A DNA stretch of 64,000 nucleotides from an uncultured Lentisphaeria bacterium (GCA_964508765.1 CAZDVD010000004.1:66784-130783); one strand, 5' to 3'; counted from the first letter of the stretch, positions 25,538-46,915 are shown. Notes: generated by a model not told the origin, from the letters alone. A program made the numbers and translations.

Positions 25538-25566
25538 TTGACGTTATAGCGTCATAACGCTATTTT
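25538..25566 (+). promoter_or_regulatory. putative sigma70-type promoter with overlapping inverted repeats (candidate antitoxin operator)
   Basis: TTGACG (25538-25543), a 17-nt spacer, then TATTTT (25561-25566). The inverted repeats GACGttatagCGTC and AGCGTcataACGCT overlap the spacer. GGAGGA (25579) sits 9 nt before the ATG at 25594. Confidence 0.35.
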
Positions 25567-25593
25567 CACTCCCTATCTGGAGGAGAATAGCCT

Positions 25594-25827
25594 ATGAAAA
25601 AACTATCAACTCGGGCAACGGTTTATCTGGAGCCCACTATTCACAAAGCTTTGAAGTTAAAAGCAGTAGAGACATCCCTCTCTATTTCCCAGATTATCAA
25701 TGATGCCTTGCGTTCTGATTTATTTGAGGATGCAGAAGATCTGGAAACTTTTCAGAATCGAATTGATGAGCCCTCATTGGATTATGAGACTTTTGTTCAG
25801 GAATTGAAGCGAGATGGCATTCTATAA
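25594..25827 (+). CDS. type II antitoxin (ribbon-helix-helix, ParD/RelB-like)
   Basis: 77 aa, located immediately upstream of the RelE/ParE toxin and overlapping it by 14 bp. The N-terminal ATVYLEPTIHKALKLKAV resembles an RHH domain. Confidence 0.6.
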   Translation: MKKLSTRATVYLEPTIHKALKLKAVETSLSISQIINDALRSDLFEDAEDLETFQNRIDEPSLDYETFVQELKRDGIL

Positions 25828-26071
25828 GATTGAATTTAAAAAATCGGTCAAAAAGGATCTTAGACACCTTCCCAAAAATGATATTGTTAAAATTTTAGAC
25901 CGCATACATAGATTGTCCACCAACCCTAGACCTCAGCAATCAAGAAAATTGTCCAGCCAAGAAAAATATCGTTTACGGCATGGGAAATATCGGATCTTGT
26001 ATGAAATCCGAGACCAGTTATTGCTTATTACAATTGTAAAGGTTGGCCATAGAAAAAATATCTATCAATAG
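25814..26071 (+). CDS. RelE/ParE family toxin
   Basis: 85 aa. YKIEFKKSVKKDLRHLPKNDIVKILDRIHRL...RLRHGKYRILYEIRDQLLLITIVKVGHRKNIY is the classic RelE/ParE pattern. Confidence 0.75.
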   Translation: MAFYKIEFKKSVKKDLRHLPKNDIVKILDRIHRLSTNPRPQQSRKLSSQEKYRLRHGKYRILYEIRDQLLLITIVKVGHRKNIYQ

Positions 26072-26130
26072 GACTCAATTCTATATTGTATGGCTGATGC
26101 AGTGAACCCAAAGATGAAAGCGACCTAGTC

Positions 26131-32829: not shown

Positions 32830-33267
32830 CTACTCCACCCGCTGGAGGGTAAGGATCGTTTTGAATAAGAGATAGCCCTCATCTCGGGTTCCATCATTGG
32901 CCACATTGTCCTTAATCTCAAGACGCATCTCATCATCATCAATATCACACTGATAGATAGCTCTACCACCCACAAAAGCAGGTGTCTTTGCTACCTCAAC
33001 ATAGGTGGTCAACTCCGTGCCTGACAATTCATAGCGACCCGTATTGGTCACGATGGAGTTATAACTCTGAACCTTTTCTGCATCATTTGGATGCCACTGA
33101 TCGGCATAGGCTTCCTGCTGCACTTTTAGAGGCATCCAGGTCATACTATAATGATCCTCTGTAAAAATGAAGAGACCAGGAAGTGCTGGGTCAATGGTCG
33201 TGACGTCTTCGCCAGATACATAAACGACAGTCAATAGCTTCCACACACCAACAATGGCATTCCCCAT
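32830..33267 (-). CDS. hypothetical lipocalin-like domain protein
   Basis: 145 aa. MGNAIVGVWKLLTVVYVSGED... resembles lipocalin-like (DUF, calycin) beta-barrel N-termini. No catalytic motifs. Confidence 0.35.
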   Translation of the reverse strand: MGNAIVGVWKLLTVVYVSGEDVTTIDPALPGLFIFTEDHYSMTWMPLKVQQEAYADQWHPNDAEKVQSYNSIVTNTGRYELSGTELTTYVEVAKTPAFVGGRAIYQCDIDDDEMRLEIKDNVANDGTRDEGYLLFKTILTLQRVE

Positions 33268-33271
33268 AGCT

Positions 33272-33727
33272 CTAGCCCTTCTTTTTCTTTCTGGACTTAC
33301 GCTTCTTCTTTTTTATCAGATGTCTATTCTCATGGAAAAAACTGGCCATGATTTTCGAGACCGCAGCAGGAACCACTTTTTTAATGGCTTGCTTGGGAGT
33401 GAGCAATTTCCGCTTTCGAAAATGTTTCTCATCCCAGTTGTCTTTGAGCTTGGTGACCTCCATGTAATAGAGACGCACCTTGTAGCTACCCCCCAGTTTT
33501 TCATAGGTGTAGGTCCCGATTTCATCAGGAAGAACTTCTCCTTTGATTCCGGCTTCCTCCAAGGCTTCCTTGGCAGCAGATTCCTGGGCTGAAAGCTCCC
33601 AGTCAATGGATCCCTTGGGAATAATCCAGCGTTTGCTACCTCGGGCGGTAATAACCACTACCCTCCCCTTGCAAACAGGGATCACCCCAGACTGTTTAAA
33701 ATATTTTAGCTTTATTTTTGAAGACAT
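33272..33727 (-). CDS. NUDIX hydrolase
   Basis: 151 aa with a Nudix box: GSIDWELSAQESAAKEALEEAGIKG. The C-terminus is a lysine-rich tail. Confidence 0.8.
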   Translation of the reverse strand: MSSKIKLKYFKQSGVIPVCKGRVVVITARGSKRWIIPKGSIDWELSAQESAAKEALEEAGIKGEVLPDEIGTYTYEKLGGSYKVRLYYMEVTKLKDNWDEKHFRKRKLLTPKQAIKKVVPAAVSKIMASFFHENRHLIKKKKRKSRKKKKG

Positions 33728-33745
33728 CTAATCGAATACAAAAGA

Positions 33746-34363
33746 CTAAGGGTTTCTTAATTCTGCGATGCGCTTAACCAGGCTACCGTCTTCCAGGTAA
33801 CGATAGATATCCTTACCAGGACACAAAGTCTCTGTATAGTCTTTATGGCTTTTGATCAGGTCATTGGATACAGCATACTTATCTGCCAGCATGGCTGTCA
33901 ACAGGGCGAGTTGTTCGAACTGGATTTTACTCAGAATCTGGTGCTCATAATTGCCCATAACGCAAATAAGGGCATGTCCACGTACATCATAGTCCGTGTT
34001 TGTGTCACCAGGATATTCGATGGGACGTGCTTCATAGATATTTCCCTTCAAGTCAATCATATAGTGATAAGGATTATCAATCCAGTTTTTGTCAGATCGA
34101 CTCCAGGATTGTAAACCAATCAAATATTTGATAGCATCCTTGTCTTCGGGGAAATCCTCACCGCCGTGATGGATGGTGATGTATTTGATCTCATGAGTTG
34201 GAATGGTATCAGTGAGAGAGACCCATCCCCATTCAGCGCGTGTCATAATCTCAAGTTGGGGGGCAATAGGTTCAGGTGTAACTGTCACCACATTTTCCAC
34301 CTGGGGGGTGCAACAAGCCAGGAATAGTGCAGCAACAAGTACGAGGAGAATTCTTGGGGCCAT
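33746..34363 (-). CDS. N-acetylmuramoyl-L-alanine amidase (Amidase_2/PGRP-like) lipoprotein
   Basis: 205 aa with a signal peptide and Cys (LFLACCT). ITIHHGGE...HYMIDLKGNIYEARP...VRGHA...CPGKD matches the amidase_2 Zn-binding pattern. Confidence 0.75.
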   Translation of the reverse strand: MAPRILLVLVAALFLACCTPQVENVVTVTPEPIAPQLEIMTRAEWGWVSLTDTIPTHEIKYITIHHGGEDFPEDKDAIKYLIGLQSWSRSDKNWIDNPYHYMIDLKGNIYEARPIEYPGDTNTDYDVRGHALICVMGNYEHQILSKIQFEQLALLTAMLADKYAVSNDLIKSHKDYTETLCPGKDIYRYLEDGSLVKRIAELRNP

Positions 34364-34382
34364 TTTCGTTTCTTTCTTTTGA

Positions 34383-34997
34383 TTACAAGGTATTGAGTGA
34401 CTGGCCTGAAGTCAGCATATTTATACATTTCTTAATGCGATTCTGGCGAGTCGTTTCTCTTTTGGCCTGAGCAATCCATCCTAAGTATTGCTGTCGATGA
34501 GATGGTGGAAGTTTGTCCCACTTGTTCCTGAGACCTATTGAGGCTTCCAGGGCTGATGCTAATACCCGGGATATTTCAAATTGATTGGGACTCGTGCGAA
34601 TCACATCCCACTCCCCTGTGGCTCGGGCATGATCGATGAGAACCTGACCAGGTGCTTCAATGAGACCTGCCTCCTCAAGTTTGCTTACGCGTTTCTTGTT
34701 AACTTCTGACCACTGACTGTCAGGTTTCCGAGGTGTAAACTTCTGCATATACTTTTCATCATCAATGCCTTTGACCAGACTATCAATCCAACCAAAACAG
34801 ATAGCATCATCCAGTGCTTCAATTTTGGTAATTGTTTGTTTACCTGAATCTTTTTTATAGATAACCAGCCATACCTCATCACGATTACTATAATTGTGCT
34901 CCAACCATTCTCGCCATTCCATGCGAGATTTCACACGCAATGCTGGTTTTCCATCGATGAAATGATTCTGTATCTCAGTCCCATTTTGGAATGTCAA
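34383..34997 (-). CDS. YdeI/OmpD-associated family protein
   Basis: 204 aa. WREWLEHNYSNRDEVWLVIYKK...CFGWIDSL is typical of YdeI/DUF1801-like 'bacteriocin-protection' family proteins. Confidence 0.55.
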   Translation of the reverse strand: MTFQNGTEIQNHFIDGKPALRVKSRMEWREWLEHNYSNRDEVWLVIYKKDSGKQTITKIEALDDAICFGWIDSLVKGIDDEKYMQKFTPRKPDSQWSEVNKKRVSKLEEAGLIEAPGQVLIDHARATGEWDVIRTSPNQFEISRVLASALEASIGLRNKWDKLPPSHRQQYLGWIAQAKRETTRQNRIKKCINMLTSGQSLNTL

Positions 34998-35112
34998 AAT
35001 ATAGTCTCCTCCTTTTTAATTCAAATGATCCACTCTCTGAAAACTGCAAGAACATAAAAAAATTTGCGTTTTCTGATTTCGGAGTATTTTCATGGCAGAA
35101 AAGGAGTCTTCA

Positions 35113-35877
35113 ATGCGGATAGTTTCATGGAATGTTAACGGTATACGTGCCGTTGTTAAAAAGGGTTTTTGGGATTGGTTTAACCTGGCTACACCGGATA
35201 TTATGTGCTTTCAAGAAACCAAGGCACAGCCTGATCAACTGGATGAGTCTTTGACAAAACCTCTGGGATATCATGCCTATTATCATTCGGCAGAAAGAAA
35301 AGGCTACAGCAGTGTGGCAACTTGGTGTAAAACAGAACCTCTTTCTGTAGAGACAGCCATTTTGGATGATGCATTCAATCGTGAAGGCCGCATTGTCCTC
35401 ACCGAGCAAAAAAAATTCTTTTTGTATAATGTCTACTTCCCCAATGGACAAAAAGATCAGGACCGCCTCGATTATAAATTACGTTTTTATGGTGCCTTAC
35501 AGGAACACATCAGAGAGAAGGATAAAATTAAGCCGGTAATTGTCGTGGGCGATTTTAACACGGCTCATACAGATCTTGACCTTGCTCGTCCAAAGCCCAA
35601 TGAAAAAACCTCAGGCTTTCTACCTGAAGAGCGAGTTTGGATAGACCGATATCTGGATACGGGATTTGTTGACACCTTTCGTCAGGAGCATCCTGGCGAC
35701 AAAGGTTACTATTCCTGGTGGAGCTTTCGATCCAATGCCCGCGTTAACAATGTGGGTTGGAGAATTGACTACTTCCTGGTCAGCGAAAAAATTGCTGATG
35801 CTGTGGATGCTTCCCGTATTCATCCCAACGTCACCGGTTCTGATCACTGCCCCATCAGCCTCGTCCTTAAGGCTTAA
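35113..35877 (+). CDS. xth: exodeoxyribonuclease III
   Basis: MRIVSWNVNGIRA start is preceded by AAGGAG (the ORF track begins 21 nt earlier at 35092). ExoIII/AP-endonuclease motifs are present throughout (IMCFQETK, GDFNTAH, SDHCPI). Confidence 0.85.
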   Translation: MRIVSWNVNGIRAVVKKGFWDWFNLATPDIMCFQETKAQPDQLDESLTKPLGYHAYYHSAERKGYSSVATWCKTEPLSVETAILDDAFNREGRIVLTEQKKFFLYNVYFPNGQKDQDRLDYKLRFYGALQEHIREKDKIKPVIVVGDFNTAHTDLDLARPKPNEKTSGFLPEERVWIDRYLDTGFVDTFRQEHPGDKGYYSWWSFRSNARVNNVGWRIDYFLVSEKIADAVDASRIHPNVTGSDHCPISLVLKA

Positions 35878-36090
35878 TTATCTTCTTGTACAAAAAGTTT
35901 TCAACCGCGAAGGGCACAAAGAGCGCAAAAAAAGTGAAATACGAAACGCTCACAACCCCTTCTCAATCTCAGGGAAGAAATGATCAATGGTTATGAGTTC
36001 TATCCTGCTGATAAATATTCAAACTTTGCGTCCTCAGCGTCCTTTGCGGTTTGACTGTGCGATTTCCACATTCAATTTGGCTGAAGTTTA

Positions 36091-36888
36091 GTGCCTGAAC
36101 TTCCTGAAGTAGAAACCGTCGTACGAGGTCTTCAGAACACCATCGTAGGTGAGACCATCGTGGATTTGGAAGTTCCCTGGGAAAAAGCCCTGGTAGCCGA
36201 TGATCCATATGAGTCCATTGTTGGCAAAGCCATCACGGGGGTGCGTCGAAGAGCCAAATATATTGTTATTGAGTTAGACCACGGCGCCCTGCTTGTTCAT
36301 TTGCGCATGACCGGCAAACTCACACCGGTTTTTCCAGAAAAGCACGTGACTGTTATTCTGAATTTTGAATCAGGAAGTAGTCTGTATTTTCAAGATACAC
36401 GCAAATTTGGGCGCATGGAATATGTCCATAACCCTGATGATACCCTGGACCACCTGGGACCAGAACCACTCAGTGTGGAATTCACTGTGGATGCGTTTTA
36501 TGATATGCTCAGGGGTAAAAAACGGCAGATAAAACCTCTGCTACTGGATCAAACCTTTCTGGCGGGTCTAGGGAACATCTATGTGGATGAGGCTCTTTTC
36601 CAGGCGGGTATTCAACCCTTGAGTATTGCCTCTGTCATACCGAAGGCTCGAGTGGATAGCCTTCATTCAGCAATTCAGTCCATTCTCTCAGCCAGCATTA
36701 AGGCTCAGGGAACCACAGTACTCAATTTTAGTCATGGGGATAATCAGAGTGGGACTTATCAGGCTGCTCTACAGGTTTATGGTCGTAAAGATGAGCCCTG
36801 TCTCATCTGCGATACCCCTGTTACCAAAATCAAGGTTGGTCAGCGAGGTACCCACTATTGCTCGAGCTGTCAGAAGAAATTCACATAA
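36091..36888 (+). CDS. mutM: formamidopyrimidine-DNA glycosylase
   Basis: GTG start giving MPELPEVETVVRGL (catalytic Pro2/Glu3). The H2TH motif and a C-terminal zinc finger (CLICDTPVTKIKVGQRGTHYCSSCQ) are present. Confidence 0.85.
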   Translation: MPELPEVETVVRGLQNTIVGETIVDLEVPWEKALVADDPYESIVGKAITGVRRRAKYIVIELDHGALLVHLRMTGKLTPVFPEKHVTVILNFESGSSLYFQDTRKFGRMEYVHNPDDTLDHLGPEPLSVEFTVDAFYDMLRGKKRQIKPLLLDQTFLAGLGNIYVDEALFQAGIQPLSIASVIPKARVDSLHSAIQSILSASIKAQGTTVLNFSHGDNQSGTYQAALQVYGRKDEPCLICDTPVTKIKVGQRGTHYCSSCQKKFT

Positions 36889-36919
36889 TTATTTTAATGA
36901 TTTTTAAGAAGGAAGTTAT

Positions 36920-37354
36920 ATGCTTTTAGAACAAATCGTTCCCGCTCTCCAGCTTTCCATCGGACCAGTTATTGTCATCTCTGGTGCCGGTCTTGTGTTG
37001 TTATCCATGACCAACCGCTATGCTCGTGTAATTGATCGTGCACGTTCACTGGCTGAAGCACTACGGCAAATTTCAGGTGGAAAAAACCAGCGCATTCAAT
37101 CTCAAATTCAGATTATCTCTCGTCGAGCCCGTAATCTTCGTTTAGCCATAGTGTTTGTTTCCACGTCCTTATTGCTGGCAGCCGTACTGGTAATATCTCT
37201 ATTCCTTATTGCTCTATTCGATCTTCATGCCGTCGGTTTGATTATGGGGCTTTTCATTTTGTGTATGGGTGCATTAAGCATCGGGCTGATTATTTTTATC
37301 CTGGATGTGAATGATTCGATGTCTGCCTTGAAAATTGAAATCGATGGAGAATAA
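36920..37354 (+). CDS. DUF2721 family membrane protein
   Basis: 144 aa with two TM segments. The N-terminal LSIGPVIVISGAGLVLLSMTNRYARV is the DUF2721 signature. The SD AAGGAAG precedes the ATG. Confidence 0.6.
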   Translation: MLLEQIVPALQLSIGPVIVISGAGLVLLSMTNRYARVIDRARSLAEALRQISGGKNQRIQSQIQIISRRARNLRLAIVFVSTSLLLAAVLVISLFLIALFDLHAVGLIMGLFILCMGALSIGLIIFILDVNDSMSALKIEIDGE

Positions 37355-37661
37355 TTGGAGTCGGATAACTAGAATTCTTTTAATGATCTAGATGCCAATG
37401 AAAGCATGTTGTTCCGGCAACACAATCATTCTTATTCATACTTACTTACAGAAACTCACTCCTGAGTAAATCCTACAATTGAGCTATGAACAAGAGGTTT
37501 TCAACCCCCTTCATTTCAATTATTCGGTGAGGAGAAACAACGTGATTCAAAGCAAAAGCATGAAAACCAGTTCTCAATGGATGTGGAGATTTGTTACCTG
37601 AAAGACGGTTCTATTTAGAGATGCGTTAGTTGTTTTCTATTCGAGTTGAGTGATTTATTGA

Positions 37662-38534
37662 TCAGAAACTTTGAACATCACCGAAGTTATGTAGAGTTAC
37701 CTGATCCTCATCAATCTTAAGTTGGGCAATCCCACTCCCCCCAACGAATAATTCAGCCTCAAATTCTTCACACAAACTCCGAAGTTCCTCGAGCTCAGCT
37801 TGGGCTTCAGGTACATTTTCAATATATACTGAAGAAAGGTACACGCGTTCAGGCTTGAATGACTCAAAGACGCTTATTGTATCACCTGCTGGGGTTTTTT
37901 GACCGCTGAAAAGGACTTGAAAACCGCGTTGCTCCAGGAGGTGTTGAACCATTTTAGCTGGTATATCATGAAGCTCCTCACTCAAAGTAAGAACGAAGGC
38001 TTTACCCTGTGATTTTTCCGGTTTGACGACCACATCCTGGAGTTGAATGATGTCATCACGAATGGTTTGAGAAGCAAGATGCTCCTGAGAAACGCTTAAC
38101 TTTCCATCCATCCATAATTCACCGATTTGATGGAGTACGGGTGTAAGCAAGTCATCATAAATACTAGCTAAATTTTGATTCACCATATACAGACCATTCA
38201 AAACTGTTTTGACTGAGGACTGATCGCAGTAGATAGCTCGATCCAGAATGTAGGGAATGAGTTCAACATAGTCAGCTCGTAATATCTGGTGGCTAAGCTC
38301 AAGATTCAGCTGGTTGTCCAGAGGTAACAGGGACAAGCGTTGTGAATACTTCTCATGCTCCATGGCAAAGGCGGCAAGATGTCTCAGTAAGAATTTTCTA
38401 TGCCCACCAGCAGTTTTGACACAGTCCAGTTTACCGGAATCTGTCCATCGCTTTACTGTGGCGACATTCACACCAAGGATTTTGGCAACATCAACGCTGC
38501 TGATTAAAGAGGTACTATTGGCAGTTTTTTGCAT
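37662..38534 (-). CDS. HTH (excisionase/MerR-like) transcriptional regulator with a CarH/LitR-like cobalamin-binding domain
   Basis: 290 aa with the N-terminal HTH VDVAKILGVNVATVKRWTDSGKL. The central B12-binding_2 signature is LTPVLHQIGELWMDGKLSVSQEHLAS. A Rossmann B12-binding region follows, with an ELHDIP variant of the DxHxxG motif. Confidence 0.6.
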   Translation of the reverse strand: MQKTANSTSLISSVDVAKILGVNVATVKRWTDSGKLDCVKTAGGHRKFLLRHLAAFAMEHEKYSQRLSLLPLDNQLNLELSHQILRADYVELIPYILDRAIYCDQSSVKTVLNGLYMVNQNLASIYDDLLTPVLHQIGELWMDGKLSVSQEHLASQTIRDDIIQLQDVVVKPEKSQGKAFVLTLSEELHDIPAKMVQHLLEQRGFQVLFSGQKTPAGDTISVFESFKPERVYLSSVYIENVPEAQAELEELRSLCEEFEAELFVGGSGIAQLKIDEDQVTLHNFGDVQSF

Positions 38535-38575
38535 CTATCATCATTCCTGTTCGGTTTCAAAATAACCCGTTAGAC

Positions 38576-40843
38576 TTAAATTTCTGCACTTATTCCAATG
38601 GTGGGCAAAATCCCAAAACCCTGGTTCTCCGAAACCTCACCCGTATTTGGATCAAAAGCGGGGGCAGAAGATGATTTGCGGTTATAAACATTCTGTACAT
38701 CAATGTAAGTAATCAAACCCCAACCGTTATTGGCCCAACGACGATCCAGACGCACATCGAGATTATGGTTTGCATCCAACCGGAGTGCATTATATGCCTC
38801 GGTCATCTGAACTCCTGAATCATTGAGGGGTGTGTAGGGTCGACCAGAAGCATAGCGGAACTTGGCACTGAACTCCCATTTCTCATTGAATACATATCCA
38901 CCACCCAGATTCATGATCCAGGTCTGATCAAAACTTCCTGGACGCTCAATACCATCCAGAGCCGTAAACATGGACTGGTTATAGCTCATACTGATAGTAC
39001 CATAGTAGGGAACCTCAGACATTTTCTTCTGGACAAAGAATTCCAGTCCACGTGCCCAGCCTGTTCCTTCACTACTGAGAGGATCAACACCAAAGGATGC
39101 AAAACCTTCCGTTGAGCCACCAAAGCCAGCACCTGTATTCACCATAACGAGATAATCTCGAGTTAGACTTACTGGATACTTACGATACTGTTTCGTATAT
39201 GCTTCCAGAGTGACTTTTGTATCTGAACGCCAGAGATACTCCAAACCCAGAACGAGTTGATCGGCCTGAATGGGATCAAGATCTCGGTTGCTCTCATTGG
39301 AGACCAACCAGATCGTGCTGGGGAATTGGTTATATCTCCCAATACTGGTTGATACGCTCACATCACCACTTAGCTTGTAGTTCATGGAAAAGCGGGGTGA
39401 CAAAACTGGATCTGTATTTAAAAAGGTTGAGTGGTCTGCTCTTAGACCGGCTGTATAGTTAAATCGGAAAAAGCGCTGGGATAATTGAGTATAAACACCG
39501 GATTTATAACCCACCTTCGCATACTCCTCTTCAATGCTCAAGGTACCAATACCCGGAACGTCATTTTGATTGAGAACCAGGTCTGAAGCAAAATCAACTC
39601 TACTCAATTTTGCTCCGGTACTGAGACGGAGTGATTTACTCAGCTTCCAGGTCAAATCTGATTTAAGGGCGGTCTGTCGGTCATAACTGGCATTGCTAAA
39701 AACGGGTGTTAGGTCGGCATTTCTCTGAAGAAAATCATATTCCACATTCACCTGACTCAGGCTTGTGGTAAAAAAACCAGAACTCATTAAATGTCTGTAA
39801 TTGATACCGGCGACGAACTGCTGCTGGTCACTTCCCAATATCTGGCTATTTGAGTTGCGCTGTTCTTTGGTATCATTAAACCACTTCACATTATTCAGAG
39901 CTGCAATACCCAGGAAGGTAATCTGATCAGTCTGATTTAAATCGAAGGTGGCTTTTGTTAAAAAATCCCAGTATTCTGGTACGAAACCAAAACCTGCAGC
40001 TTTAAACAAAAAATCAAGATAGCTACGTCGTGCTGAGAAAAGAAAATTACCATTTTGGGGTAAGGCACCTTCCAGGTTGAATCCAAACTGGCTGGCTGAG
40101 ATGGTTGTTTTTGAAGCGAGTTGGTCGCTGAGACCTTCACGAAGTGAGATGTCCAGGACAGAGCTGAGACGATCACCATATTTGGCAGTAAAGCCACCTG
40201 TGGAGAATGATGTTTCATCAACAAAATCCAGATTTACATAACTCTGCGGACCTCCACTGGCACCCTGAGTTCCAAAGTGATTGATGTTAGGTACTTCAAT
40301 ATTGTCAATAATATAGAGGTTTTCACTGGGGGCTCCACCACGAACAATGAGGTCATTCCGACCACCATCAGCCTGGGCAACACCAGGAAGAATAGAGATC
40401 GCACGAACGACATCTTCAAATCCACCAGGAAGTCTTCTAATCTCTTCACTTGATTGGACCTGAGTGCTGGAGGGTGTATCGGGGCTTTTTGTGAAATATT
40501 CTGCAACTACAACTGTGGCTTCCAGCTCGAGAATGGTTTCCTGTAATTCAATATTGATAACAGCGGGTCTATTTGATTTTACCACGACATCACTCATGAT
40601 ACGTGATTTATAACCGATGTAATCCACTCTCAAACGATATGTACCAACGGATACGGACTGGATATAAAAATTGCCATCAATATCTGTTGCTGATCCGCGG
40701 TTCGCGTCTTCTACAATGACATTTGCTCCAATAATAGGCTGTTGAGTCATTTCATCAATCACCTTACCCTGTATGGAACTGCTCCCCTGGCCAAAGAGGG
40801 TTGTAGCGCTTAATATGATGATACTGAACAGTAGGTTTTTCAT
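38576..40843 (-). CDS. TonB-dependent receptor with an N-terminal carboxypeptidase-regulatory-like domain
   Basis: Likely start MKNLLFSIIILSATTLFGQ at 40843 (the ORF track extends to 40930). The plug motifs are IRRLPGG..DVVRAISILPGV...GGRNDLIVRGG...NLYIIDNIEV, followed by a long C-terminal beta-barrel. Confidence 0.8.
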   Translation of the reverse strand: MKNLLFSIIILSATTLFGQGSSSIQGKVIDEMTQQPIIGANVIVEDANRGSATDIDGNFYIQSVSVGTYRLRVDYIGYKSRIMSDVVVKSNRPAVINIELQETILELEATVVVAEYFTKSPDTPSSTQVQSSEEIRRLPGGFEDVVRAISILPGVAQADGGRNDLIVRGGAPSENLYIIDNIEVPNINHFGTQGASGGPQSYVNLDFVDETSFSTGGFTAKYGDRLSSVLDISLREGLSDQLASKTTISASQFGFNLEGALPQNGNFLFSARRSYLDFLFKAAGFGFVPEYWDFLTKATFDLNQTDQITFLGIAALNNVKWFNDTKEQRNSNSQILGSDQQQFVAGINYRHLMSSGFFTTSLSQVNVEYDFLQRNADLTPVFSNASYDRQTALKSDLTWKLSKSLRLSTGAKLSRVDFASDLVLNQNDVPGIGTLSIEEEYAKVGYKSGVYTQLSQRFFRFNYTAGLRADHSTFLNTDPVLSPRFSMNYKLSGDVSVSTSIGRYNQFPSTIWLVSNESNRDLDPIQADQLVLGLEYLWRSDTKVTLEAYTKQYRKYPVSLTRDYLVMVNTGAGFGGSTEGFASFGVDPLSSEGTGWARGLEFFVQKKMSEVPYYGTISMSYNQSMFTALDGIERPGSFDQTWIMNLGGGYVFNEKWEFSAKFRYASGRPYTPLNDSGVQMTEAYNALRLDANHNLDVRLDRRWANNGWGLITYIDVQNVYNRKSSSAPAFDPNTGEVSENQGFGILPTIGISAEI

Positions 40844-41078
40844 GGTAAATCTCCGATAATCAAGGTCAAATCTGTCATTTTTATTCTGCATACATGACGA
40901 ATATAGACATGATTTATCCGAACGCAACAAAAAAGAGCGTTATGCGCGTTTTGTTTTAACAACCACAAACGGGAACGCCCTGTTGCAGTTGTTTTCACGC
41001 CTTTTTGCTACTGCATGGATTGCGCGTTTTGTCTGTGTATCATAGATTATTGAAGAGAAGTGTACTTAATGGAGCTGC

Positions 41079-42380
41079 TTAAGCGCTTGTAGGCGCTTCA
41101 ACTTTATAGATAAACACCAGTAGTCCAGCCGCAACCAAACTCAGACTAAGGGTATAGAGTGGAATGGTTCCGAATGATTCAACGATAAGACCGGCGACTG
41201 AAATGTATACAACGATAAAAGGTGCTACTGCTGTATCCAGAGCAGCGTAATACAGTTTTCGGTCTCCCAGTTCTCCAGCAAACTCATAAACAAAGACCAT
41301 AAAGGAAGACTGACCAGCCCCAAACCCCATGCCCACAAAGAGGAAGGCGAGGTAGGCCATCCATGGCTCTGTAGCCAGGATCGCTGTGAGACCTGCCAGG
41401 AAATGACCAATAAAGAATCCGCTGATGGCCATCTTGCGACCAAAGATGTCGCCAATATATCCAAACACAATGTTGAAGATGGCCTGGCCCACAACCAGAA
41501 AGAAGGTGAAGGTACCCGCTGAACTCAGAGGCAAATCAAACCTGTTTTGTAAATCAACACCATAAAAAGCCAGGGGCATCATGGTCGCTGCTGCCAAGGC
41601 TCGGCTGAAAATATAATTACGGAAATTCCTGTCCTGAGTGTAGATCGTTTTTAAGCGTGTCCACCAGTGATCAACGAGTTCTTTCTTTGCTAACGGAGGA
41701 TGAATAACCCTCATGAAGATGAAAAAGATATTCCCCACGAGTATGGCCAGGGTCATAATAAGAAAGGCCACGCCAAAATTGCTGGGGAAGCTTAAGGATT
41801 CTAGGGAAAGGACTTCTTTCAGAACGTACCCTCCCACCATCCCAAGTATGGCATTCACTGTAAAGGTGATCCCGAAAAATCTTCCTCGACGACCTGCCAC
41901 TGTCACAGAAGCTAAAAAATCAGCCCAAACGGGAACCAGAAACCCCACCCCCAATGACCAGATAACCCACAGTATCAAATAAACCATGATTCCGGTCTGG
42001 CCAACAAACTCAAAATAGTAGAACGCCAGACCTATCAGAAATGCAATAGGAGCCATGGCAAAATGTAAACCCACATTGAGCTCTTTAATTCGCGTTGAAC
42101 CACGAAAAAGATTAGCTGAGAGCAACTGGGGAAGGGCAACGAGTAAGATAAACCCTCCCGGTATCAAGCCAATGATGAAGGCAGAAGCGCCCATTTGGGC
42201 AAGAAACATGGGAATGACTGAATTCATATTGTGAAAAGCCATAGCAAAGCCCCACAAACCCTCACCGCTTGCATTGAGAACCGTATTGCGTGTATGAATC
42301 TGTTGTGGGTTGGTACTCCTCATGCCTGGAATATAATCGGCACGGCGAATCAAATAATATTTTGATTTGATGCTCTGCAA
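41079..42380 (-). CDS. MFS transporter
   Basis: 433 aa with 12 predicted TM helices and MFS-type loop motifs. Confidence 0.75.
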   Translation of the reverse strand: MQSIKSKYYLIRRADYIPGMRSTNPQQIHTRNTVLNASGEGLWGFAMAFHNMNSVIPMFLAQMGASAFIIGLIPGGFILLVALPQLLSANLFRGSTRIKELNVGLHFAMAPIAFLIGLAFYYFEFVGQTGIMVYLILWVIWSLGVGFLVPVWADFLASVTVAGRRGRFFGITFTVNAILGMVGGYVLKEVLSLESLSFPSNFGVAFLIMTLAILVGNIFFIFMRVIHPPLAKKELVDHWWTRLKTIYTQDRNFRNYIFSRALAAATMMPLAFYGVDLQNRFDLPLSSAGTFTFFLVVGQAIFNIVFGYIGDIFGRKMAISGFFIGHFLAGLTAILATEPWMAYLAFLFVGMGFGAGQSSFMVFVYEFAGELGDRKLYYAALDTAVAPFIVVYISVAGLIVESFGTIPLYTLSLSLVAAGLLVFIYKVEAPTSA

Positions 42381-42416
42381 TGAAAGATTGGGACACGAAG
42401 CAAAAAAAGGAAAGAT

Positions 42417-43055
42417 ATGTCCATCTTCATAGATTCAACAGATCTGACACATGTTAAAAAAGCGCTTGAGCAAGGATGGGTTAAGGGTATTACGACCAAC
42501 CCGCTGCTTCTGGCTCAATCTAGTCTGGAAACCTCCGCATTGCTCAAGGCACTCAAGCAGCTGAGTGATGGACCCATTTTTTACCAACTAACATCAAACT
42601 CCTTTGACTCATCTATTACAGAAGCCCATCAAGCCCTGGATATCCTTGAAAAACAGTTGGTGGTTAAATTGCCACCCACCGATCTGGGCTTTCGATTGTG
42701 TGCAGAGTTGTCATCCCGAATGGTCTGCTGTCCCACAGCTATCTACGCACCCGCTCAAGCCCTGGTTGCCCGTGAGGCTGGCGCTCAGTATCTGGCTGTT
42801 TATGTTAATCGCGCGACTCGCCTCATGGGTGATGGAATCAAATTGATTGAGGATATTGCTGTGATTTTAGAGGGTAGCTCAACCCGGCTTCTCGCTGCCA
42901 GTCTGAAATCATCAGAAGAAACCAGCCAGGCATTTGCCGCTGGAGCAGATGATTTGACGCTGCCCTATCAAACCCTCCTGGAAATGACAAAGCATCCTCT
43001 GAGCGAGGAGGCCATTAAGCAGTTCCAAAGTAAGGGTACCGGTATAGTCGGATAG
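42417..43055 (+). CDS. transaldolase family protein (fructose-6-phosphate aldolase/TalC-like)
   Basis: 212 aa. MSIFIDSTDLTHVKKALEQGWVKGITTNPLL is the hallmark N-terminus of FSA/short transaldolases, and the Schiff-base Lys region VKLPPT is present. Confidence 0.8.
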   Translation: MSIFIDSTDLTHVKKALEQGWVKGITTNPLLLAQSSLETSALLKALKQLSDGPIFYQLTSNSFDSSITEAHQALDILEKQLVVKLPPTDLGFRLCAELSSRMVCCPTAIYAPAQALVAREAGAQYLAVYVNRATRLMGDGIKLIEDIAVILEGSSTRLLAASLKSSEETSQAFAAGADDLTLPYQTLLEMTKHPLSEEAIKQFQSKGTGIVG

Positions 43056-43127
43056 GTTCTTAGCCGGTAGTGGCAGGGTCGGATTGCAATCCGACCTTAC
43101 ATCTGATAGTTCGCCACAAATCCTTAC

Positions 43128-44036
43128 CTAAACCAGGCCTAATAGGATAGAACGATACTTGCTCTCTGCATCATCAGAGCGGCTCACAAGAAGAATGGGC
43201 ACACGGGCTCCAACAATGACTCCTCCAATTTTGCAACCCCCCAAAACGGAGAGCCCTTTCACAAGATGATTGGCTGCTGTCGTATTGGGCATAAGGAAGA
43301 CATCGATCTCCCCCGATATTTCAGAATCCAGACCTTTTTTCATGGCTGCCTTTTTGGAGAGAGCGACGTCTGGTGCAATGGGTCCTTCGATAGAAACCCT
43401 TTTTGATAAGTTCTTAACCACATTCTGAGCGACAACCGTCTCAGGAATTTTATCACTCACATTCTCCACGAGAGTCATCATTCCAAAACGCGGGTCATCA
43501 ATACCAAGTTGCTTCAAGTATTGAGTGTTATTTACTATCATTTGTTCAAAAACATGCTCATCGAGATGAAGATTTATACCGCCGTCACTAATGAAGAGAA
43601 GCTTGTGATAATAGGGAGATTCGATGACAGCAATATGGTTCAGCAGTTCACCCTGACGTAAACCTGTCTCCTTATCTAGGATGGCCCTTAACAATTCACC
43701 TGTCTGAATCCTGCCCTTCATCAACAGATCAGCCCGGCCAGCATGAATGTGCTTGATTGCATCATCAGCTGGATTTTGACTATCTACGATTTCAAAAGCT
43801 GCTACATCCGGTGGAATAAGTGATTCAATTTTTCGGGCATCCCCAAATAGTATGAATTGAGCAAGACCTTCTTCCTGGGCGCGTGTGGCTACTTGAATGA
43901 GTACTGGATCTTCAGCAGCAACAACAGCAACCCGCTTAGGTGTGGCGTCTTTGACTAATTGATGAAGTTCTTGGAAACTGGATATCATATTTCGTTGCGT
44001 GTGTTGTGTATGAGCCGAAGATCTCAACAAGCTCAA
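43128..44036 (-). CDS. phosphate acetyl/butyryltransferase (PTA_PTB family)
   Basis: 302 aa. RVAVVAAEDPVLIQVATRAQEEGLAQFILFGD matches the Pta/Ptb N-terminus. The probable true start is the internal Met (MISSFQEL, ~43988). Confidence 0.75.
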   Translation of the reverse strand: MSLLRSSAHTQHTQRNMISSFQELHQLVKDATPKRVAVVAAEDPVLIQVATRAQEEGLAQFILFGDARKIESLIPPDVAAFEIVDSQNPADDAIKHIHAGRADLLMKGRIQTGELLRAILDKETGLRQGELLNHIAVIESPYYHKLLFISDGGINLHLDEHVFEQMIVNNTQYLKQLGIDDPRFGMMTLVENVSDKIPETVVAQNVVKNLSKRVSIEGPIAPDVALSKKAAMKKGLDSEISGEIDVFLMPNTTAANHLVKGLSVLGGCKIGGVIVGARVPILLVSRSDDAESKYRSILLGLV

Positions 44037-45283: not shown

Positions 45284-46498
45284 TCACTTTTTAAATAGCT
45301 CTGAAAAATAATTTTTCATATCTTCTTCTTTGTTATCCTTATCCTGAATCTTCTGGTCTTTACTGGCACTTTCACCCTGTTCATCCCCCGATGAATCAAC
45401 CGGCTCTTTATCCGAAGTTGTTTTACCCACAGAATCTATATCTGTGTCAACCATACTGGCCCCGCCGACCTCTTTAAGCATATCGTCAAAAGTGCTTTCA
45501 AATTTCTCGTTACGCTCATCAAATAACTTGTCAATATCTTCTTCTGTCTTCGGTTCTGCAGATTCAGTTCCATTAGATTTATCCTCCACGGTTCCGTGTG
45601 AGTCATCCATTTCGAACTTGTCCGCACTACTTTCTTCAGCCTGCGTTTCACTCATATCTGTCAATTGGTATACTGGATCGTCTTCATTAGGTCCTTCATC
45701 AGGTCCTTCATCAATAAATGAATCTCTTTCAGCATCAGGAGCATCATTCACAGCATTTTCTTGGATATGATTGTCATCCATCGAAGTATCTGGTTCGTCC
45801 TCATCTCCCTCCGCTCCAACAAATGAATCCCCTGCAACGGGGGGATCAGGAACCTCTTTTACTTCATCTTCACGAATGCTCTCTGGGTCTGTATCCAAAG
45901 ATTCAAAGGCAGGGCTGGAATTGTCGTCGTCATCCTCAAATGAAGGAATCTCGATATGAGGTTCAGCGGTATCAACCTCGTCTTCCTCTGTCGTCTGATC
46001 CTGATCCAGTTCAAGAAATTCAGATTCACTTTTTTTATCTTTATCCACCTTAAATTCCTGGCCTGGTGGGTGTGAGTCGGGGATGTCTGCCCCTTCAACA
46101 TCTTCATCAAATATTTGTGATTGATCCTCGTTTTCCTGGTCTTGAAAATCGGTAGTGTCTTCATCGGTTGAGTTGAATTTGGTGATCCGGACATCTGTTC
46201 TGGTAAAAAGCCCATCTTTTATCATCGGTTGAATACGTTCGATATATCTATCAATTCTATTCGTCATGCCCTGAAATTCCAAAACCACAGGTAAGTTTTC
46301 AGAGGACCTAAGGATCTTTAGCCTGGTGGATTCATCCTGAGCTCCAAAAAAACCTTTATCCCCTATGGTGACAGTGCCACCTGACAAACGGCTATTGAAG
46401 GCAATCTCTAAAAGCAGTTCATAAAGAACGATGCCTTCATACTTATCGTTTTTACTGATAAAAATACAGAGCTTCTCGCCTGGGTAATCTTCATGCAT
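45284..46498 (-). CDS. DUF190 (P-II-like) domain fused to a ~290-aa poly-acidic low-complexity C-terminal tail
   Basis: 404 aa. The first ~110 aa are paralogous to the protein at 44785-45126 (KLCIFISKNDKYEGIVLYELLLEIAF...GGTVTIGDKGFFG...NLPVVLEFQG). The remainder is D/E/S/T-rich with no TM segment or motif. Confidence 0.65.
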   Translation of the reverse strand: MHEDYPGEKLCIFISKNDKYEGIVLYELLLEIAFNSRLSGGTVTIGDKGFFGAQDESTRLKILRSSENLPVVLEFQGMTNRIDRYIERIQPMIKDGLFTRTDVRITKFNSTDEDTTDFQDQENEDQSQIFDEDVEGADIPDSHPPGQEFKVDKDKKSESEFLELDQDQTTEEDEVDTAEPHIEIPSFEDDDDNSSPAFESLDTDPESIREDEVKEVPDPPVAGDSFVGAEGDEDEPDTSMDDNHIQENAVNDAPDAERDSFIDEGPDEGPNEDDPVYQLTDMSETQAEESSADKFEMDDSHGTVEDKSNGTESAEPKTEEDIDKLFDERNEKFESTFDDMLKEVGGASMVDTDIDSVGKTTSDKEPVDSSGDEQGESASKDQKIQDKDNKEEDMKNYFSELFKK

Positions 46499-46516
46499 AT
46501 TTGAATTCCATTTTCA

Positions 46517-46915
46517 TCACCACAACTTAGCGATACTAACCCCAGCCCACACGGCAATAAGTGTCCCAACAATATTGGCAAGAATATTCAAACCAGCAAA
46601 CATCCACTCTCCATTTCGCATGAGATTGAGTGTCTCTAAAGAGAAGGTTGAATAGGTGGTAAACGCACCTAGCACACCAACTAGGAGAAACAATCTCATC
46701 TCCTGATTTACAATCATCTTTTCCAGAAAAAGCGTGGCAAAGAGTCCCAGAACAAAACTACCCAACAGGTTAACAGATAAGGTCCCCAGGGGGAATCTGT
46801 CGCTCAATTTCTGAGCCAGACCACTGATCCAATAACGTCCGACAGCACCCAAAAATCCACCCAGGCCAATAGCAATAATTTTACTCATATCCATCATTTT
46901 ATTGCTCCACTTCAT
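46517..46915 (-). CDS. crcB: fluoride channel CrcB/Fluc
   Basis: 132 aa with 4 TM helices. Motifs GGFLGAVGRY, GTLSVNLLGSFVLG and GVLGAFTTYSTFSLE match the CrcB signature. Confidence 0.85.
   Translation of the reverse strand: MKWSNKMMDMSKIIAIGLGGFLGAVGRYWISGLAQKLSDRFPLGTLSVNLLGSFVLGLFATLFLEKMIVNQEMRLFLLVGVLGAFTTYSTFSLETLNLMRNGEWMFAGLNILANIVGTLIAVWAGVSIAKLW

What the first reader, a model, noticed from the sequence alone, without database searches (positions are those of the whole stretch)
37662..40843. TonB-dependent receptor followed by an HTH regulator with a CarH/LitR-like B12-binding domain
The regulator carries the diagnostic B12-binding_2 motif (GELW..G.LSVSQEHLAS) and a His-containing Rossmann B12 site, but has an excisionase-type HTH rather than the canonical MerR domain. 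It lies 41 bp downstream of a TonB-dependent receptor on the same strand. This suggests a cobalamin- or light-responsive switch coupled to outer-membrane uptake, possibly of corrinoids. I saw no B12 riboswitch in the receptor leader. That would fit protein-based sensing rather than RNA-based sensing.
Basis: partly seen in the sequence, partly recalled or inferred. Interest (0 to 1): 0.55.

Follow-up and report, generated by a model that had tools for sequence, protein, structure and literature searches.

The report
B12 light-switch regulator controlling an outer-membrane receptor
A marine Marinimicrobia (SAR406) genome carries a two-gene unit in which a vitamin-B12-based light-sensor regulator (a relative of CarH and CtMerR) most likely switches on an outer-membrane TonB-dependent receptor and itself through a newly inferred DNA operator; nothing found here shows that the receptor imports B12.

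Summary
The regulator is ORF 37662-38534(-), 290 aa. It lies 41 bp downstream of a 755-aa TonB-dependent receptor (TBDR, 38576-40843(-)), and there is no cobalamin riboswitch. The regulator matches full length the solved, light-responsive AdoCbl protein CtMerR (8JBS, E=1.5e-27). It keeps Wx9EH, the His ligand and GxxxP. Its HTH resembles BldC, not CarH.

New here is a conserved operator of two tandem 9-bp direct repeats (AAAACGCGC-ATAACGCTC, 40932-40952(-)). It sits directly upstream of the TBDR promoter and is the only such site in the window. The same motif lies upstream of the regulator gene, of carotenoid operons and of TBDR orthologues in Calditrichota, KSB1 and Marinimicrobia genomes.

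The best reading is a dark-state AdoCbl-dependent repressor that light removes, derepressing the TBDR-regulator operon. This would make the operon part of a photoprotection-type regulon.

The corrinoid-uptake idea has no independent support. There is no BtuB model hit, 0 of 47 family loci carry a cobalamin riboswitch, and most orthologues lack the regulator. The receptor's substrate remains unknown.

I rate this a new member of the CtMerR/CarH kind with a new output.

The parts
37662..38534 (-). Regulator gene (290 aa): a BldC-type winged HTH fused to a CarH/CtMerR-type cobalamin-binding domain.
   Evidence: Pfam. Full-length phmmer match to 8JBS CtMerR, E=1.5e-27. AF2 model pLDDT 85; Foldseek top hits are TtCarH and the CtMerR CBD, TM 0.84, rmsd 2.3 A.
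38358..38495 (-). HTH DNA-binding domain (residues 14-59). K28-R29-W30 and A42-G43-G44-H45-R46-K47-F48 are invariant in the family.
   Evidence: HTH_17 and MerR_1 hits. Aligns with BldC 6AMA residues 7-57; R29 in TVKRW corresponds to BldC Arg30 in TVTRW (PMC5859096). Invariant columns.
38058..38225 (-). Four-helix-bundle cap (B12-binding_2, residues 104-159). It contains G138-x-x-W141 and E151-H152 (nt 38079-38114).
   Evidence: The GxxW and EH signature is from PMC11796333.
37731..38003 (-). Rossmann B12-binding subdomain (residues 178-268). It has the predicted lower axial ligand His189 (nt 37968-37970) and G211-QKT-P215.
   Evidence: PF02310 at 29.7 bits, below the cut-off of 32.1. His aligns with the corresponding His of TtCarH and CtMerR (the papers number these H177 and H204). 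Invariant E187, H189, G211, T214.
38535..38575 (-). 41-bp spacer between the receptor and regulator genes. No terminator-like or sigma-70-like site was found, so co-transcription is likely.
   Evidence: A spacer of about the same length is kept in relatives.
38576..40843 (-). TonB-dependent receptor-like outer-membrane protein (755 aa). It has a signal peptide, a CarboxypepD_reg N-terminal domain, a TonB-box-like EATVVVA, a plug and a barrel.
   Evidence: Pfam. 7326 homologues at E<=1e-10. 42% identical over its full length to a receptor inside a Calditrichaceae carotenoid operon. The TonB box was read from the sequence and is an inference.
40898..40930 (-). Putative promoter: TTG at 40927-40925 (or 40930-40928) and TATATTCG at 40905-40898. 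This resembles the Bacteroidetes-type -33/-7 pattern.
   Evidence: Sequence. Conserved in Marinimicrobia upstream regions. Across 91 operator sites TTG most often starts at index 25 from the operator start, and an A/T-rich box begins near index 47; the window matches both. Promoter identity is inferred.
40932..40952 (-). Predicted operator: two tandem 9-bp direct repeats, AAAACGCGC and ATAACGCTC, followed by a T-tract.
   Evidence: It is the only long invariant block in an alignment of 11 upstream regions. PWM score 33.1 bits; the next best site in the whole window scores 8.0. There were 118 sites >=16 bits in 83 sequences (82 related loci plus the window) against 0 in shuffles. A regex taken only from the Marinimicrobia footprint is enriched upstream of regulator genes in other phyla, p=8e-25.
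41010..41030 (-). Weak single repeat (AAAACGCGCAAT) 78 bp upstream of the main operator. It may be an auxiliary site.
   Evidence: 8.0 bits. The same half-site occurs at the same place in L001, L010 and L017.
41079..42323 (-). MFS transporter gene upstream on the same strand. It is syntenic in Marinimicrobia but has no operator of its own and is not shown to belong to the unit.
   Evidence: It is not homologous to the MFS next to a receptor orthologue in L089.

Best explanation
The region is a two-gene operon (TonB-dependent receptor, then regulator) in a Marinimicrobia/SAR406 genome. It is under the control of its own product.

The regulator belongs to the CtMerR branch of the CarH/LitR B12 photoreceptors. 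It has a BldC-type winged HTH joined to a CarH-type adenosylcobalamin-binding module.

Inferred mechanism:
- In the dark, the AdoCbl-loaded protein oligomerises, as CtMerR and CarH do (both form tetramers).
- Its DNA-binding domains then sit head-to-tail on two strong 9-bp direct repeats (40952-40935) and on the next, degenerate 9-bp registers, which cover the TTG (-33/-35) element. This blocks the promoter.
- Light cleaves the Co-C bond, the oligomer falls apart, and the receptor and regulator are transcribed.
- Without B12 the apo-protein would also fail to repress.

The receptor is a highly conserved outer-membrane protein of the FCB group with unknown substrate. It has been placed repeatedly in this regulator's light regulon, alongside carotenoid synthesis, an ECF sigma factor, SDR, SRPBCC, DUF1295 and lipocalin genes.

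Shown here: the domain identities, the operator motif and its positions, and the cross-phylum co-occurrence. Inferred: AdoCbl binding, the polarity (repression in the dark) and co-transcription.
For: Regulator identity:
- Pfam domains.
- Full-length match to CtMerR 8JBS, E=1.5e-27, and to CarH CBDs, E about 1e-11.
- AF2/Foldseek hits to CarH and to the CtMerR CBD, TM 0.84.
- W141, E151, H152, H189, G211 and T214 are invariant, and P215 is nearly so, in 25 homologues at 43-84% identity.

DNA-binding domain:
- It aligns with BldC; the Arg that reads the G is conserved.
[quoted passage not shown] That matches the 9-bp period and the A-tract-then-C shape of AAAACGCTC.

Operator:
- Invariant block in 11 Marinimicrobia receptor leaders.
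- 33.1 bits, and unique in the 64-kb window.
- 118 sites against 0 in shuffles.
- Genes downstream of sites: the regulator itself in 39 loci, receptor orthologues in 18, lycopene cyclase or CrtI (first gene of carotenoid operons) in 12, DUF4397 proteins in 7, ECF sigma in 3, RibA in 3, SDR in 2.
- Non-circular enrichment, p=8e-25.
- Two operator-like sites lie directly upstream of the CtMerR orthologue of C. thermophilum B.
- Fixed geometry relative to TTG and an A/T box.

Coupling to the receptor:
- Synteny MFS-receptor-regulator in 12 Marinimicrobia loci, with regulator identity falling to 58%.
- A receptor 42% identical sits inside a carotenoid operon divergent from the regulator.
- No terminator in the 41-bp spacer.
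Against: - There is no experiment on this protein or on its operator.
- The two strong repeats lie just upstream of the -35/-33 element rather than on it, a position also used by activators. Repression depends on occupancy of the degenerate third and fourth registers.
- One of the four published signature elements (GxxH) reads EELH here, and that Gly is not conserved in the family.
- PF02310 is 2.4 bits below its gathering score. The NCBIfam CarH equivalog scores 65 against a cut-off of 400.
- Some close relatives come from MAGs whose names suggest dim or dark water (BS150m, SI036). There the protein would act mainly as a B12 sensor.
- The receptor's role in a light response is unexplained.
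Confidence: 0.65

Rival explanations
1. This is the first reader's reading, a corrinoid-uptake feedback loop. The receptor imports cobalamin or other corrinoids. The regulator represses it when AdoCbl is plentiful and releases it when B12 is scarce or photolysed. It would be a protein replacement for the cobalamin riboswitch.
For: - CarH-type proteins need AdoCbl to bind DNA (PMC4557120, PMC11796333), so any target is automatically repressed by B12. That is the right logic for an importer.
- No riboswitch precedes the receptor.
- In Marinimicrobia the receptor is the only operator target found next to the regulator.
- Some relatives come from dim or dark water, to judge by MAG names.
Against: - No BtuB model matches; the only NCBIfam hits are the N-terminal domain.
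- No solved TonB-dependent transporter is close beyond that domain.
- 0 of 47 loci with this receptor family have a cobalamin riboswitch. From my own knowledge, B12 transporters of Bacteroidota usually do.
- Only 8 of 83 orthologue loci have the regulator within 1.5 kb.
- No btuF, btuCD, cob or pduO genes were seen in the neighbourhoods examined: precomputed Pfam tables for ten loci, Pfam scans of 36 window ORFs, and the operator-target representatives. The 82-locus census used no B12-gene queries.
- The regulon elsewhere is carotenoid and photoprotection genes.
Confidence: 0.15
2. The polarity is reversed. The AdoCbl-bound oligomer bound at about -45 to -62 activates the promoter in the dark, or when B12 is present, and light switches the receptor off.
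For: The two strong repeats end 7 nt before the TTG element. That position is typical of class I/II activators. BldC can act positively or negatively (PMC5859096, PMC6428758).
Against: - The same operator in the same orientation precedes carotenoid operons and an ECF sigma factor. In characterised CarH/LitR systems these are light-induced by relief of repression (PMC8156234, PMC11519972).
- A tetramer spanning four 9-bp registers would cover the -35/-33 element.
Confidence: 0.1
3. The cobalamin domain no longer binds B12, as in CarA or class II LitR. The protein would then be a light-independent regulator, or an effector of another sensor.
For: The GxxH glycine is replaced (EELH). PF02310 is below its gathering score.
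Against: - W141, E151, H152, H189 and G211-x3-P215 are conserved across the family.
- The CBD model superposes on AdoCbl-bound CtMerR at 2.3 A.
- In CtMerR the contact from that Gly is through a main-chain carbonyl (PMC11796333), so a side-chain change need not matter.
Confidence: 0.05
4. The adjacency has no regulatory meaning. The regulator acts elsewhere and merely sits after a housekeeping receptor gene.
For: The receptor family is very large, and most orthologues have neither regulator nor operator.
Against: - The only operator in the 64-kb window lies at the receptor promoter.
- Operators precede receptor orthologues in 17 other loci and in three gene arrangements: receptor then regulator, regulator then receptor, and divergent.
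- Two contigs have perfect operators before a receptor with no regulator nearby.
Confidence: 0.04

Closest known systems
CtMerR of Chloracidobacterium thermophilum (WP_157850694; PDB 8JBS/8JBT; PMC11796333)
   Same: - Same domain order and length class.
- Full-length alignment, residues 7-279 against 14-292, E=1.5e-27.
- Same BldC-like HTH.
- GxxW, EH, the His ligand and GxxxP are kept.
- The position of CarH His132 is not His in either protein (Met here, Arg in CtMerR).
- An operator-like 9-bp repeat precedes the C. thermophilum B orthologue of CtMerR (P0242, 89% identical).
   Different: - Only distantly related in sequence, and from another phylum.
- GxxH is ExxH here.
- The neighbouring target differs: a TonB-dependent receptor here, a polyprenyl synthase gene cluster in C. 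thermophilum B.
- The CtMerR paper did not define an operator or regulon.
CarH / class I LitR (Thermus thermophilus, Myxococcus xanthus, Bacillus megaterium; PDB 5C8A-F)
   Same: - Cobalamin-binding module: four-helix bundle with Wx9EH plus a Rossmann fold with a His ligand.
- An operator made of tandem direct repeats next to or over the -35 element.
- Autoregulation and control of carotenoid genes across the family.
   Different: - The DNA-binding domain gives no sequence match to the CarH DBD.
- The NCBIfam CarH equivalog is far below its cut-off, 65 against 400.
- No second His for a bis-His light state.
- The local target is a receptor, not crt genes.
BldC of Streptomyces (PDB 6AMA/6AMK; PMC5859096)
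   Same: - The HTH is close to BldC over 51 residues, E=8.8e-7, with Arg30 conserved.
- The predicted operator consists of 9-bp head-to-tail repeats with an A-rich start and a C at position 9.
   Different: - BldC is a 68-residue stand-alone domain that oligomerises only through its wHTH. Here the domain is fused to a B12 module that would supply ligand- and light-dependent oligomerisation.
- The NCBIfam BldC model scores 40.5 against a cut-off of 77.
BtuB with a cobalamin riboswitch (canonical B12 uptake control)
   Same: An outer-membrane TonB-dependent protein whose expression would fall when AdoCbl is abundant.
   Different: - No BtuB family match.
- No riboswitch here or in 47 family loci.
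- An extra CarboxypepD_reg N-terminal domain.
- No btuF or btuCD genes nearby.
SusC/RagA-type TonB-dependent transporters of Bacteroidota
   Same: CarboxypepD_reg N-terminal extension, then plug, then barrel.
   Different: - TIGR04056 scores 67.7 against a cut-off of 368, and only over the first 165 positions.
- 755 aa rather than about 1000.
- No SusD-like gene follows.
- The plug is unusually conserved across phyla, with 64% mean column identity over the whole protein.

Membership tests
CtMerR-like B12 photoreceptor regulators (HTH_17/BldC-type DBD + CarH-type CBD) | Full-length homology and the same domain order as CtMerR. | tested here: met
   phmmer E=1.5e-27 over residues 7-279. Pfam HTH_17, B12-binding_2 and B12-binding. 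Foldseek to 8JBS: TM 0.84, rmsd 2.3 A.
CtMerR-like B12 photoreceptor regulators (HTH_17/BldC-type DBD + CarH-type CBD) | Light-responsive CBD signature GxxW, EH, GxxH, GxxxP (PMC11796333). | tested here: inconclusive
   GELW, EH and GQKTP are present. GxxH reads EELH: the His is kept and the Gly is lost, and that Gly is not conserved in the family.
CtMerR-like B12 photoreceptor regulators (HTH_17/BldC-type DBD + CarH-type CBD) | Binds AdoCbl; tetramer in the dark, monomer after green light. | not testable with these tools
   Needs purified protein, UV-visible spectroscopy and SEC-MALS.
CarH / class I LitR | Wx9EH in the helical bundle and a His lower axial ligand in the Rossmann fold. | tested here: met
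   W141, E151, H152 and H189 are invariant in 25 homologues and align with the TtCarH residues.
CarH / class I LitR | CarH-type MerR DNA-binding domain; passes the curated CarH model. | tested here: not met
   NF052513 scores 65.1 bits against a cut-off of 400 and matches only residues 124-241. No CarH DBD hit for residues 1-68 at E<=1. Pfam MerR_1 does pass at 28.8 against 21.6.
CarH / class I LitR | His132-equivalent that forms the bis-His light state. | tested here: not met
   The residue after W141 is Met (GELWMDG). It is Arg in CtMerR (PMC11796333).
BldC family (DNA-binding domain only) | BldC-like wHTH with the guanine-reading Arg30. | tested here: met
   6AMA E=8.8e-7; TVKRW aligns with TVTRW. 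The whole-protein NCBIfam BldC score, 40.5, is below its cut-off of 77 because this protein is a fusion.
BldC family (DNA-binding domain only) | Binds 9-bp direct repeats head-to-tail. | tested here: inconclusive
   A conserved tandem 9-bp repeat lies at the target promoters. Binding itself was not tested.
BtuB (cobalamin outer-membrane transporter) | Matches a curated BtuB model. | tested here: not met
   No BtuB family among the NCBIfam hits at E<=0.01. No BtuB structure among PDB sequence hits.
BtuB (cobalamin outer-membrane transporter) | Cobalamin riboswitch in the leader, or B12 salvage or transport genes nearby. | tested here: not met
   None in the window. None in 47 loci with this receptor family. 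No btu or cob genes in the neighbourhoods whose Pfam content was inspected.
TonB-dependent transporter (general) | Plug domain plus a beta-barrel, with a signal peptide and TonB box. | tested here: met
   Plug 35.2 bits (cut-off 23.9) and OMP_b-brl_3 32.8 bits (cut-off 27). Some orthologues also hit PF00593. The signal peptide and the EATVVVA box were read from the sequence and are inferences.
SusC/RagA | Passes TIGR04056 and is paired with a SusD-like lipoprotein gene. | tested here: not met
   67.7 bits against 368. The next gene is the regulator.

The most novel reading that the evidence does not exclude
In SAR406/Marinimicrobia, an abundant, uncultured and non-phototrophic ocean lineage, a B12-based photoreceptor directly gates one conserved TonB-dependent outer-membrane transporter. 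Light, and the cell's B12 status, would then set what crosses the outer membrane.

In the strongest version the receptor imports corrinoids, or another light-linked compound such as a carotenoid or retinoid precursor. The system would be a protein-based, light-aware counterpart of the cobalamin riboswitch. The recurrent presence of three receptor subfamilies in this regulator's neighbourhoods would then point to an unrecognised outer-membrane step in bacterial photoprotection.
Probability: 0.15. Interest if true: 0.75.

Novelty: new member of a known kind. Interest (0 to 1): 0.45.

Why it matters
- It gives a concrete, testable operator, AAAACGCTC x2 with a 9-bp period, for the CtMerR branch of B12 photoreceptors. 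The CtMerR paper (PMC11796333) left its DNA site and regulon undefined. The operator may help optogenetic design.
- It links the BldC head-to-tail binding mode to a ligand- and light-controlled oligomerisation module.
- It suggests that Marinimicrobia, Calditrichota and KSB1 bacteria sense light with B12.
- In Marinimicrobia the only output found in the regions examined is a highly conserved outer-membrane receptor of unknown substrate. The papers I searched do not report light control of such a receptor.

Tried and rejected
- **Cobalamin riboswitch.** Permissive Rfam scan of 36000-44000, gathering scan of the whole window, and scans of 47 receptor loci. Nothing found.
- **BtuB or SusC membership of the receptor.** Not met.
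- **MFS-receptor pair as a conserved uptake unit.** The MFS next to a receptor orthologue in L089 is unrelated (E=0.23), and the window's MFS has no operator. I dropped this idea.
- **Fpg, ExoIII, NUDIX and lipocalin genes beside the regulator as co-regulated photodamage genes.** No operator there, so I treat them as conserved synteny only.
- **Other light or B12 genes in the window.** Pfam scans of 36 window ORFs and tblastn with carotenoid and photoprotection proteins from related loci found only housekeeping genes and no crt hit. About 20 shorter ORFs were not scanned, and no rhodopsin, photolyase, btu or cob query was run as such.
- **Sigma-70 promoter and terminator consensus scan.** Not informative. 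Counts were at or below shuffle expectation, and the likely promoter is of the Bacteroidetes type.
- **Literature searches.** I looked for a light-regulated TonB receptor tied to CarH/LitR, and for Marinimicrobia B12 photoreceptors. No direct precedent. The MliR paper (PMC9478572) turned out to be unrelated. A diel study only shows that SAR406 TonB receptors are highly transcribed.
- **Receptor orthologues in regulator-less genomes.** Contexts vary. A PLP-dependent decarboxylase gene gave a tblastn hit within the 1.5-kb flanks of 10 of 83 loci (directly upstream in the two checked, L090 and L091), which gave no functional clue.


Full report
**1. The observation**

The regulator is 37662-38534(-), 290 aa. 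The receptor is 38576-40843(-), 755 aa from the ATG of MKNLLF. A longer TTG-initiated ORF reaching 40930 exists, but more than 30 orthologues are 755-757 aa. The spacer is 41 bp.

Pfam gives the regulator these hits:
- HTH_17: 35.5 bits.
- MerR_1: 28.8 bits.
- B12-binding_2: 38 bits. These three are above their cut-offs.
- B12-binding: 29.7 bits, E=6e-7, just below its cut-off of 32.1.

The receptor has CarbopepD_reg_2, Plug and OMP_b-brl_3. A permissive Rfam scan of 36000-44000 and a gathering-score scan of the whole window found no cobalamin riboswitch. The best homologues of both proteins, at 82-93% identity, come from Marinimicrobia (Neomarinimicrobiota, SAR406) MAGs.

**2. What the regulator is**

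The best solved relative is 8JBS, 'putative cobalamin binding protein', aligned over residues 7-279 with E=1.5e-27. CarH/LitR cobalamin domains follow at about 1e-11.

8JBS is CtMerR of Chloracidobacterium thermophilum. [quoted passage not shown] That paper noted that its DNA-binding domain differs from CarH's, implying 'an alternative DNA-binding site', which it did not define. It proposes the signature GxxW, EH, GxxH, GxxxP.

The window protein has GELW, EH and GQKTP, but EELH in place of GxxH. In an alignment of 25 homologues (43-84% identical), G138, W141, E151, H152, E187, H189, G211 and T214 are invariant, and P215 is nearly so. The GxxH glycine is not conserved in the family.

An AlphaFold model (pLDDT 85.2) retrieves TtCarH and the CtMerR cobalamin domain first (TM 0.84, rmsd 2.3 A).

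The N-terminal 68 residues match CtMerR and then BldC (6AMA, E=8.8e-7). They give no CarH DNA-binding-domain hit. R29 in TVKRW lines up with BldC Arg30 in TVTRW. More precisely, this is a BldC-type winged HTH fused to a CarH-type B12 module.

The family has at least 364 members at E<=1e-5, mostly from Marinimicrobia/Fidelibacterota and Calditrichia and from other MAGs variously labelled FCB group or Deferribacteres. Some are already auto-annotated as 'light-induced transcriptional regulator'.

**3. Genomic context across the family**

I used precomputed gene tables for six homologues, an 80-locus scan of species-representative genomes and a tblastn census. These cover 82 non-redundant loci and show three recurring neighbourhoods:
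- In 12 Marinimicrobia-type loci, with regulator identity down to 58%, the order MFS, receptor, regulator is kept, followed by convergent Fpg and ExoIII genes.
- In 33 loci (Calditrichia, KSB1 and others) the regulator is divergent from a carotenoid operon: lycopene cyclase, two CrtI-like genes, CrtB, an acyltransferase, a glycosyltransferase and a Caroten_synth gene.
- In other loci it precedes SRPBCC, SDR, DUF1295, lipocalin and pyrimidine-dimer glycosylase genes.

A receptor of the same family lies next to the regulator in 29 of the 82 loci. In one Calditrichaceae MAG it sits inside the carotenoid operon and is 42% identical to the window receptor over its full length.

**4. The operator**

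I aligned the receptor leaders of 11 Marinimicrobia loci. The alignment shows one long invariant block, AAAACGCGCATAACGC-C, followed by T-rich sequence and TTG.

In the window this block is AAAACGCGC ATAACGCTC at 40952-40935, about 90 bp upstream of the ATG. TTG follows at 40927-40925 and TATATTCG at 40905-40898, which resembles a Bacteroidetes-type -33/-7 promoter.

A position weight matrix built from such sites gave:
- 33.1 bits for the window site, against 8.0 bits for the next best site in the whole window on both strands.
- 118 sites of at least 16 bits in 83 sequences (the 82 loci plus the window), against none in shuffled copies.

The first gene downstream of these sites is:
- the regulator itself in 39 loci;
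- a receptor orthologue in 18 loci, counting the window;
- lycopene cyclase or CrtI, the first gene of a carotenoid operon, in 12;
- DUF4397 secreted proteins in 7;
- an ECF sigma factor in 3;
- GTP cyclohydrolase II in 3;
- an SDR in 2.

To avoid circularity I took a regular expression from the Marinimicrobia footprint alone. It hits 33 times in 70 non-Marinimicrobia loci, and 19 of those hits fall in the 300 bp upstream of the regulator gene. That region is 1.9% of the sequence (p=8e-25).

Across 91 distinct sites, TTG most often starts 7 nt after the second repeat, and an A/T-rich box starts about 22 nt further on. The window has exactly this geometry.

The C. thermophilum B orthologue of CtMerR also has two operator-like sites directly upstream (20.6 and 11.1 bits). 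No other site in its 21-kb locus exceeds 7 bits. It is divergent from a polyprenyl synthase gene.

The 9-bp period and head-to-tail orientation agree with the BldC-DNA structures. In those each subunit occupies a 9-bp direct repeat of the form AATTxxxx(C) (PMC5859096).

**5. Mechanism**

*Shown.* The domain identities, a conserved directional operator at the receptor promoter, its uniqueness in the window, and its recurrence at autoregulated, carotenoid and receptor promoters in several phyla.

*Inferred by analogy with CtMerR and CarH.* The AdoCbl-loaded protein oligomerises in the dark. Its BldC-type domains occupy the two strong repeats and the next one or two degenerate registers, which carry the TTG element, and transcription is blocked. 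Light, or lack of B12, dissolves the oligomer and derepresses the receptor and regulator.

Co-transcription is suggested by the 41-bp spacer, which has no terminator-like or promoter-like site and keeps its length in relatives.

The weak point is polarity. The strong repeats lie just upstream of the -35/-33 element, which would also suit an activator.

**6. Is the receptor a corrinoid importer?**

The logic is attractive, because any CarH-type target is repressed by AdoCbl. I found no independent support, however.
- No BtuB model or structure matches.
- The family is very large, with 7326 hits at E<=1e-10, and about 55% identical across Ignavibacteria, Bacteroidota and Acidobacteriota. Its plug is unusually conserved.
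- In three regulator-less genomes the context is unrelated to B12 or light.
- In 83 further loci only 8 have the regulator within 1.5 kb, and about 9 have an operator.
- None of 47 loci scanned with Rfam has a cobalamin riboswitch.
- No B12 metabolism or transport gene appears among the operator targets or in the neighbourhoods whose Pfam content I inspected. The 82-locus census used no B12-gene queries.

The theme of the regulon is photoprotection. I therefore rank the corrinoid reading at about 0.15.

What keeps it alive is that the receptor is the only operator target found next to the regulator in Marinimicrobia. Some related MAGs also come from dim water, to judge by their names, and there the protein would act mainly as a B12 sensor.

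**7. Comparison and novelty**

The regulator is a new member of the CtMerR branch of the CarH/LitR photoreceptors. That architecture and its light response were published in 2024. It is not a CarH equivalog (65 against 400 bits).

I did not find the following in the searchable literature:
- the predicted operator and its BldC-like 9-bp logic;
- the reconstructed regulon;
- the recurrent placement of TonB-dependent receptors under this regulator. In SAR406 it is the only output found so far.

The receptor's substrate remains unknown.

**8. The rest of the window**

The rest of the window holds ordinary housekeeping genes. Examples are CstA, RNase E/G, HisRS, H+-pyrophosphatase, ribosomal proteins, QueA, RuvB and UvrA.

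Noticed in passing
L172:9830-9850 and L172:10004-10024 (C. thermophilum B, CP002514.1): The orthologue of the crystallised CtMerR has two operator-like 9-bp tandem repeats just upstream of, or at, its annotated start: AAAACGCTCAAAGCGGTCAAG and GAAACGTTCAAAACGTTCACC. It is divergent from a 186-aa ORF plus a polyprenyl synthase gene. A type III-B Cmr CRISPR cluster lies on its other side.
   Followed up: partly
window 36920-37354 (+): A DUF2721 membrane-protein gene sits between Fpg and the regulator. It is absent at this position in relatives L001, L003 and L008, where Fpg directly follows the regulator.
   Followed up: no
window 32830-36888: A run of damage-repair-flavoured genes is syntenic with the regulator in all close Marinimicrobia relatives: Lipocalin_5, NUDIX, Amidase_2, OmdA/DUF8412, exonuclease III and Fpg. 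No operator site lies there, so co-regulation is not indicated.
   Followed up: partly
L008:9978-9998 (also L012, L013, L014, L016): In several Marinimicrobia relatives a second operator-like site (AAAAACGCGCAAAAGGCGAAT, 20.6 bits) lies in the receptor-regulator spacer, ending 2 nt before the regulator ATG. The window's spacer lacks it.
   Followed up: no
L112:1439 and L124:1423 (soda-lake sediment contigs): Near-perfect operators (35.9 and 32.6 bits) lie about 40-60 bp upstream of a receptor orthologue, with no regulator gene within 1.5 kb. This implies control in trans.
   Followed up: no
L005:13278-16653, L053:9569-12900: A third, distant receptor subfamily (27% identical to the window's) is paired with a DUF4249 gene. 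It lies in regulator-led clusters with SRPBCC, SDR, DUF1295, pyrimidine-dimer glycosylase and lipocalin genes.
   Followed up: partly
L038:15469-15576, L039, L048, L055, L057, L061, L007: Secreted proteins made of DUF4397 repeats, several with a Por_Secre_tail (T9SS) signal, are operator targets in 7 loci. Their function is unknown.
   Followed up: no
L090:8583-9941, L091:1-1061 and 8 further L092-L171 loci: A PLP-dependent decarboxylase (Pyridoxal_deC) gene gave a tblastn hit within the 1.5-kb flanks of receptor orthologues in 10 of 83 loci; in the two checked (L090, L091) it lies directly upstream.
   Followed up: no
window 41010-41030 (-): A single operator half-site (AAAACGCGCAAT) lies 78 bp upstream of the main operator. 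It is conserved at the same place in L001, L010 and L017.
   Followed up: partly
window 24210-26130: An ORF-poor stretch of about 1.9 kb, with only one 145-aa ORF, lies between a radical-SAM/DUF2344 fusion gene and hisS. Rfam at gathering score found nothing there.
   Followed up: no
window 45284-46915 (-): A 404-aa protein with an N-terminal DUF190 domain lies next to a CrcB-like gene, as in relatives. No fluoride riboswitch was detected by the whole-window Rfam scan.
   Followed up: no
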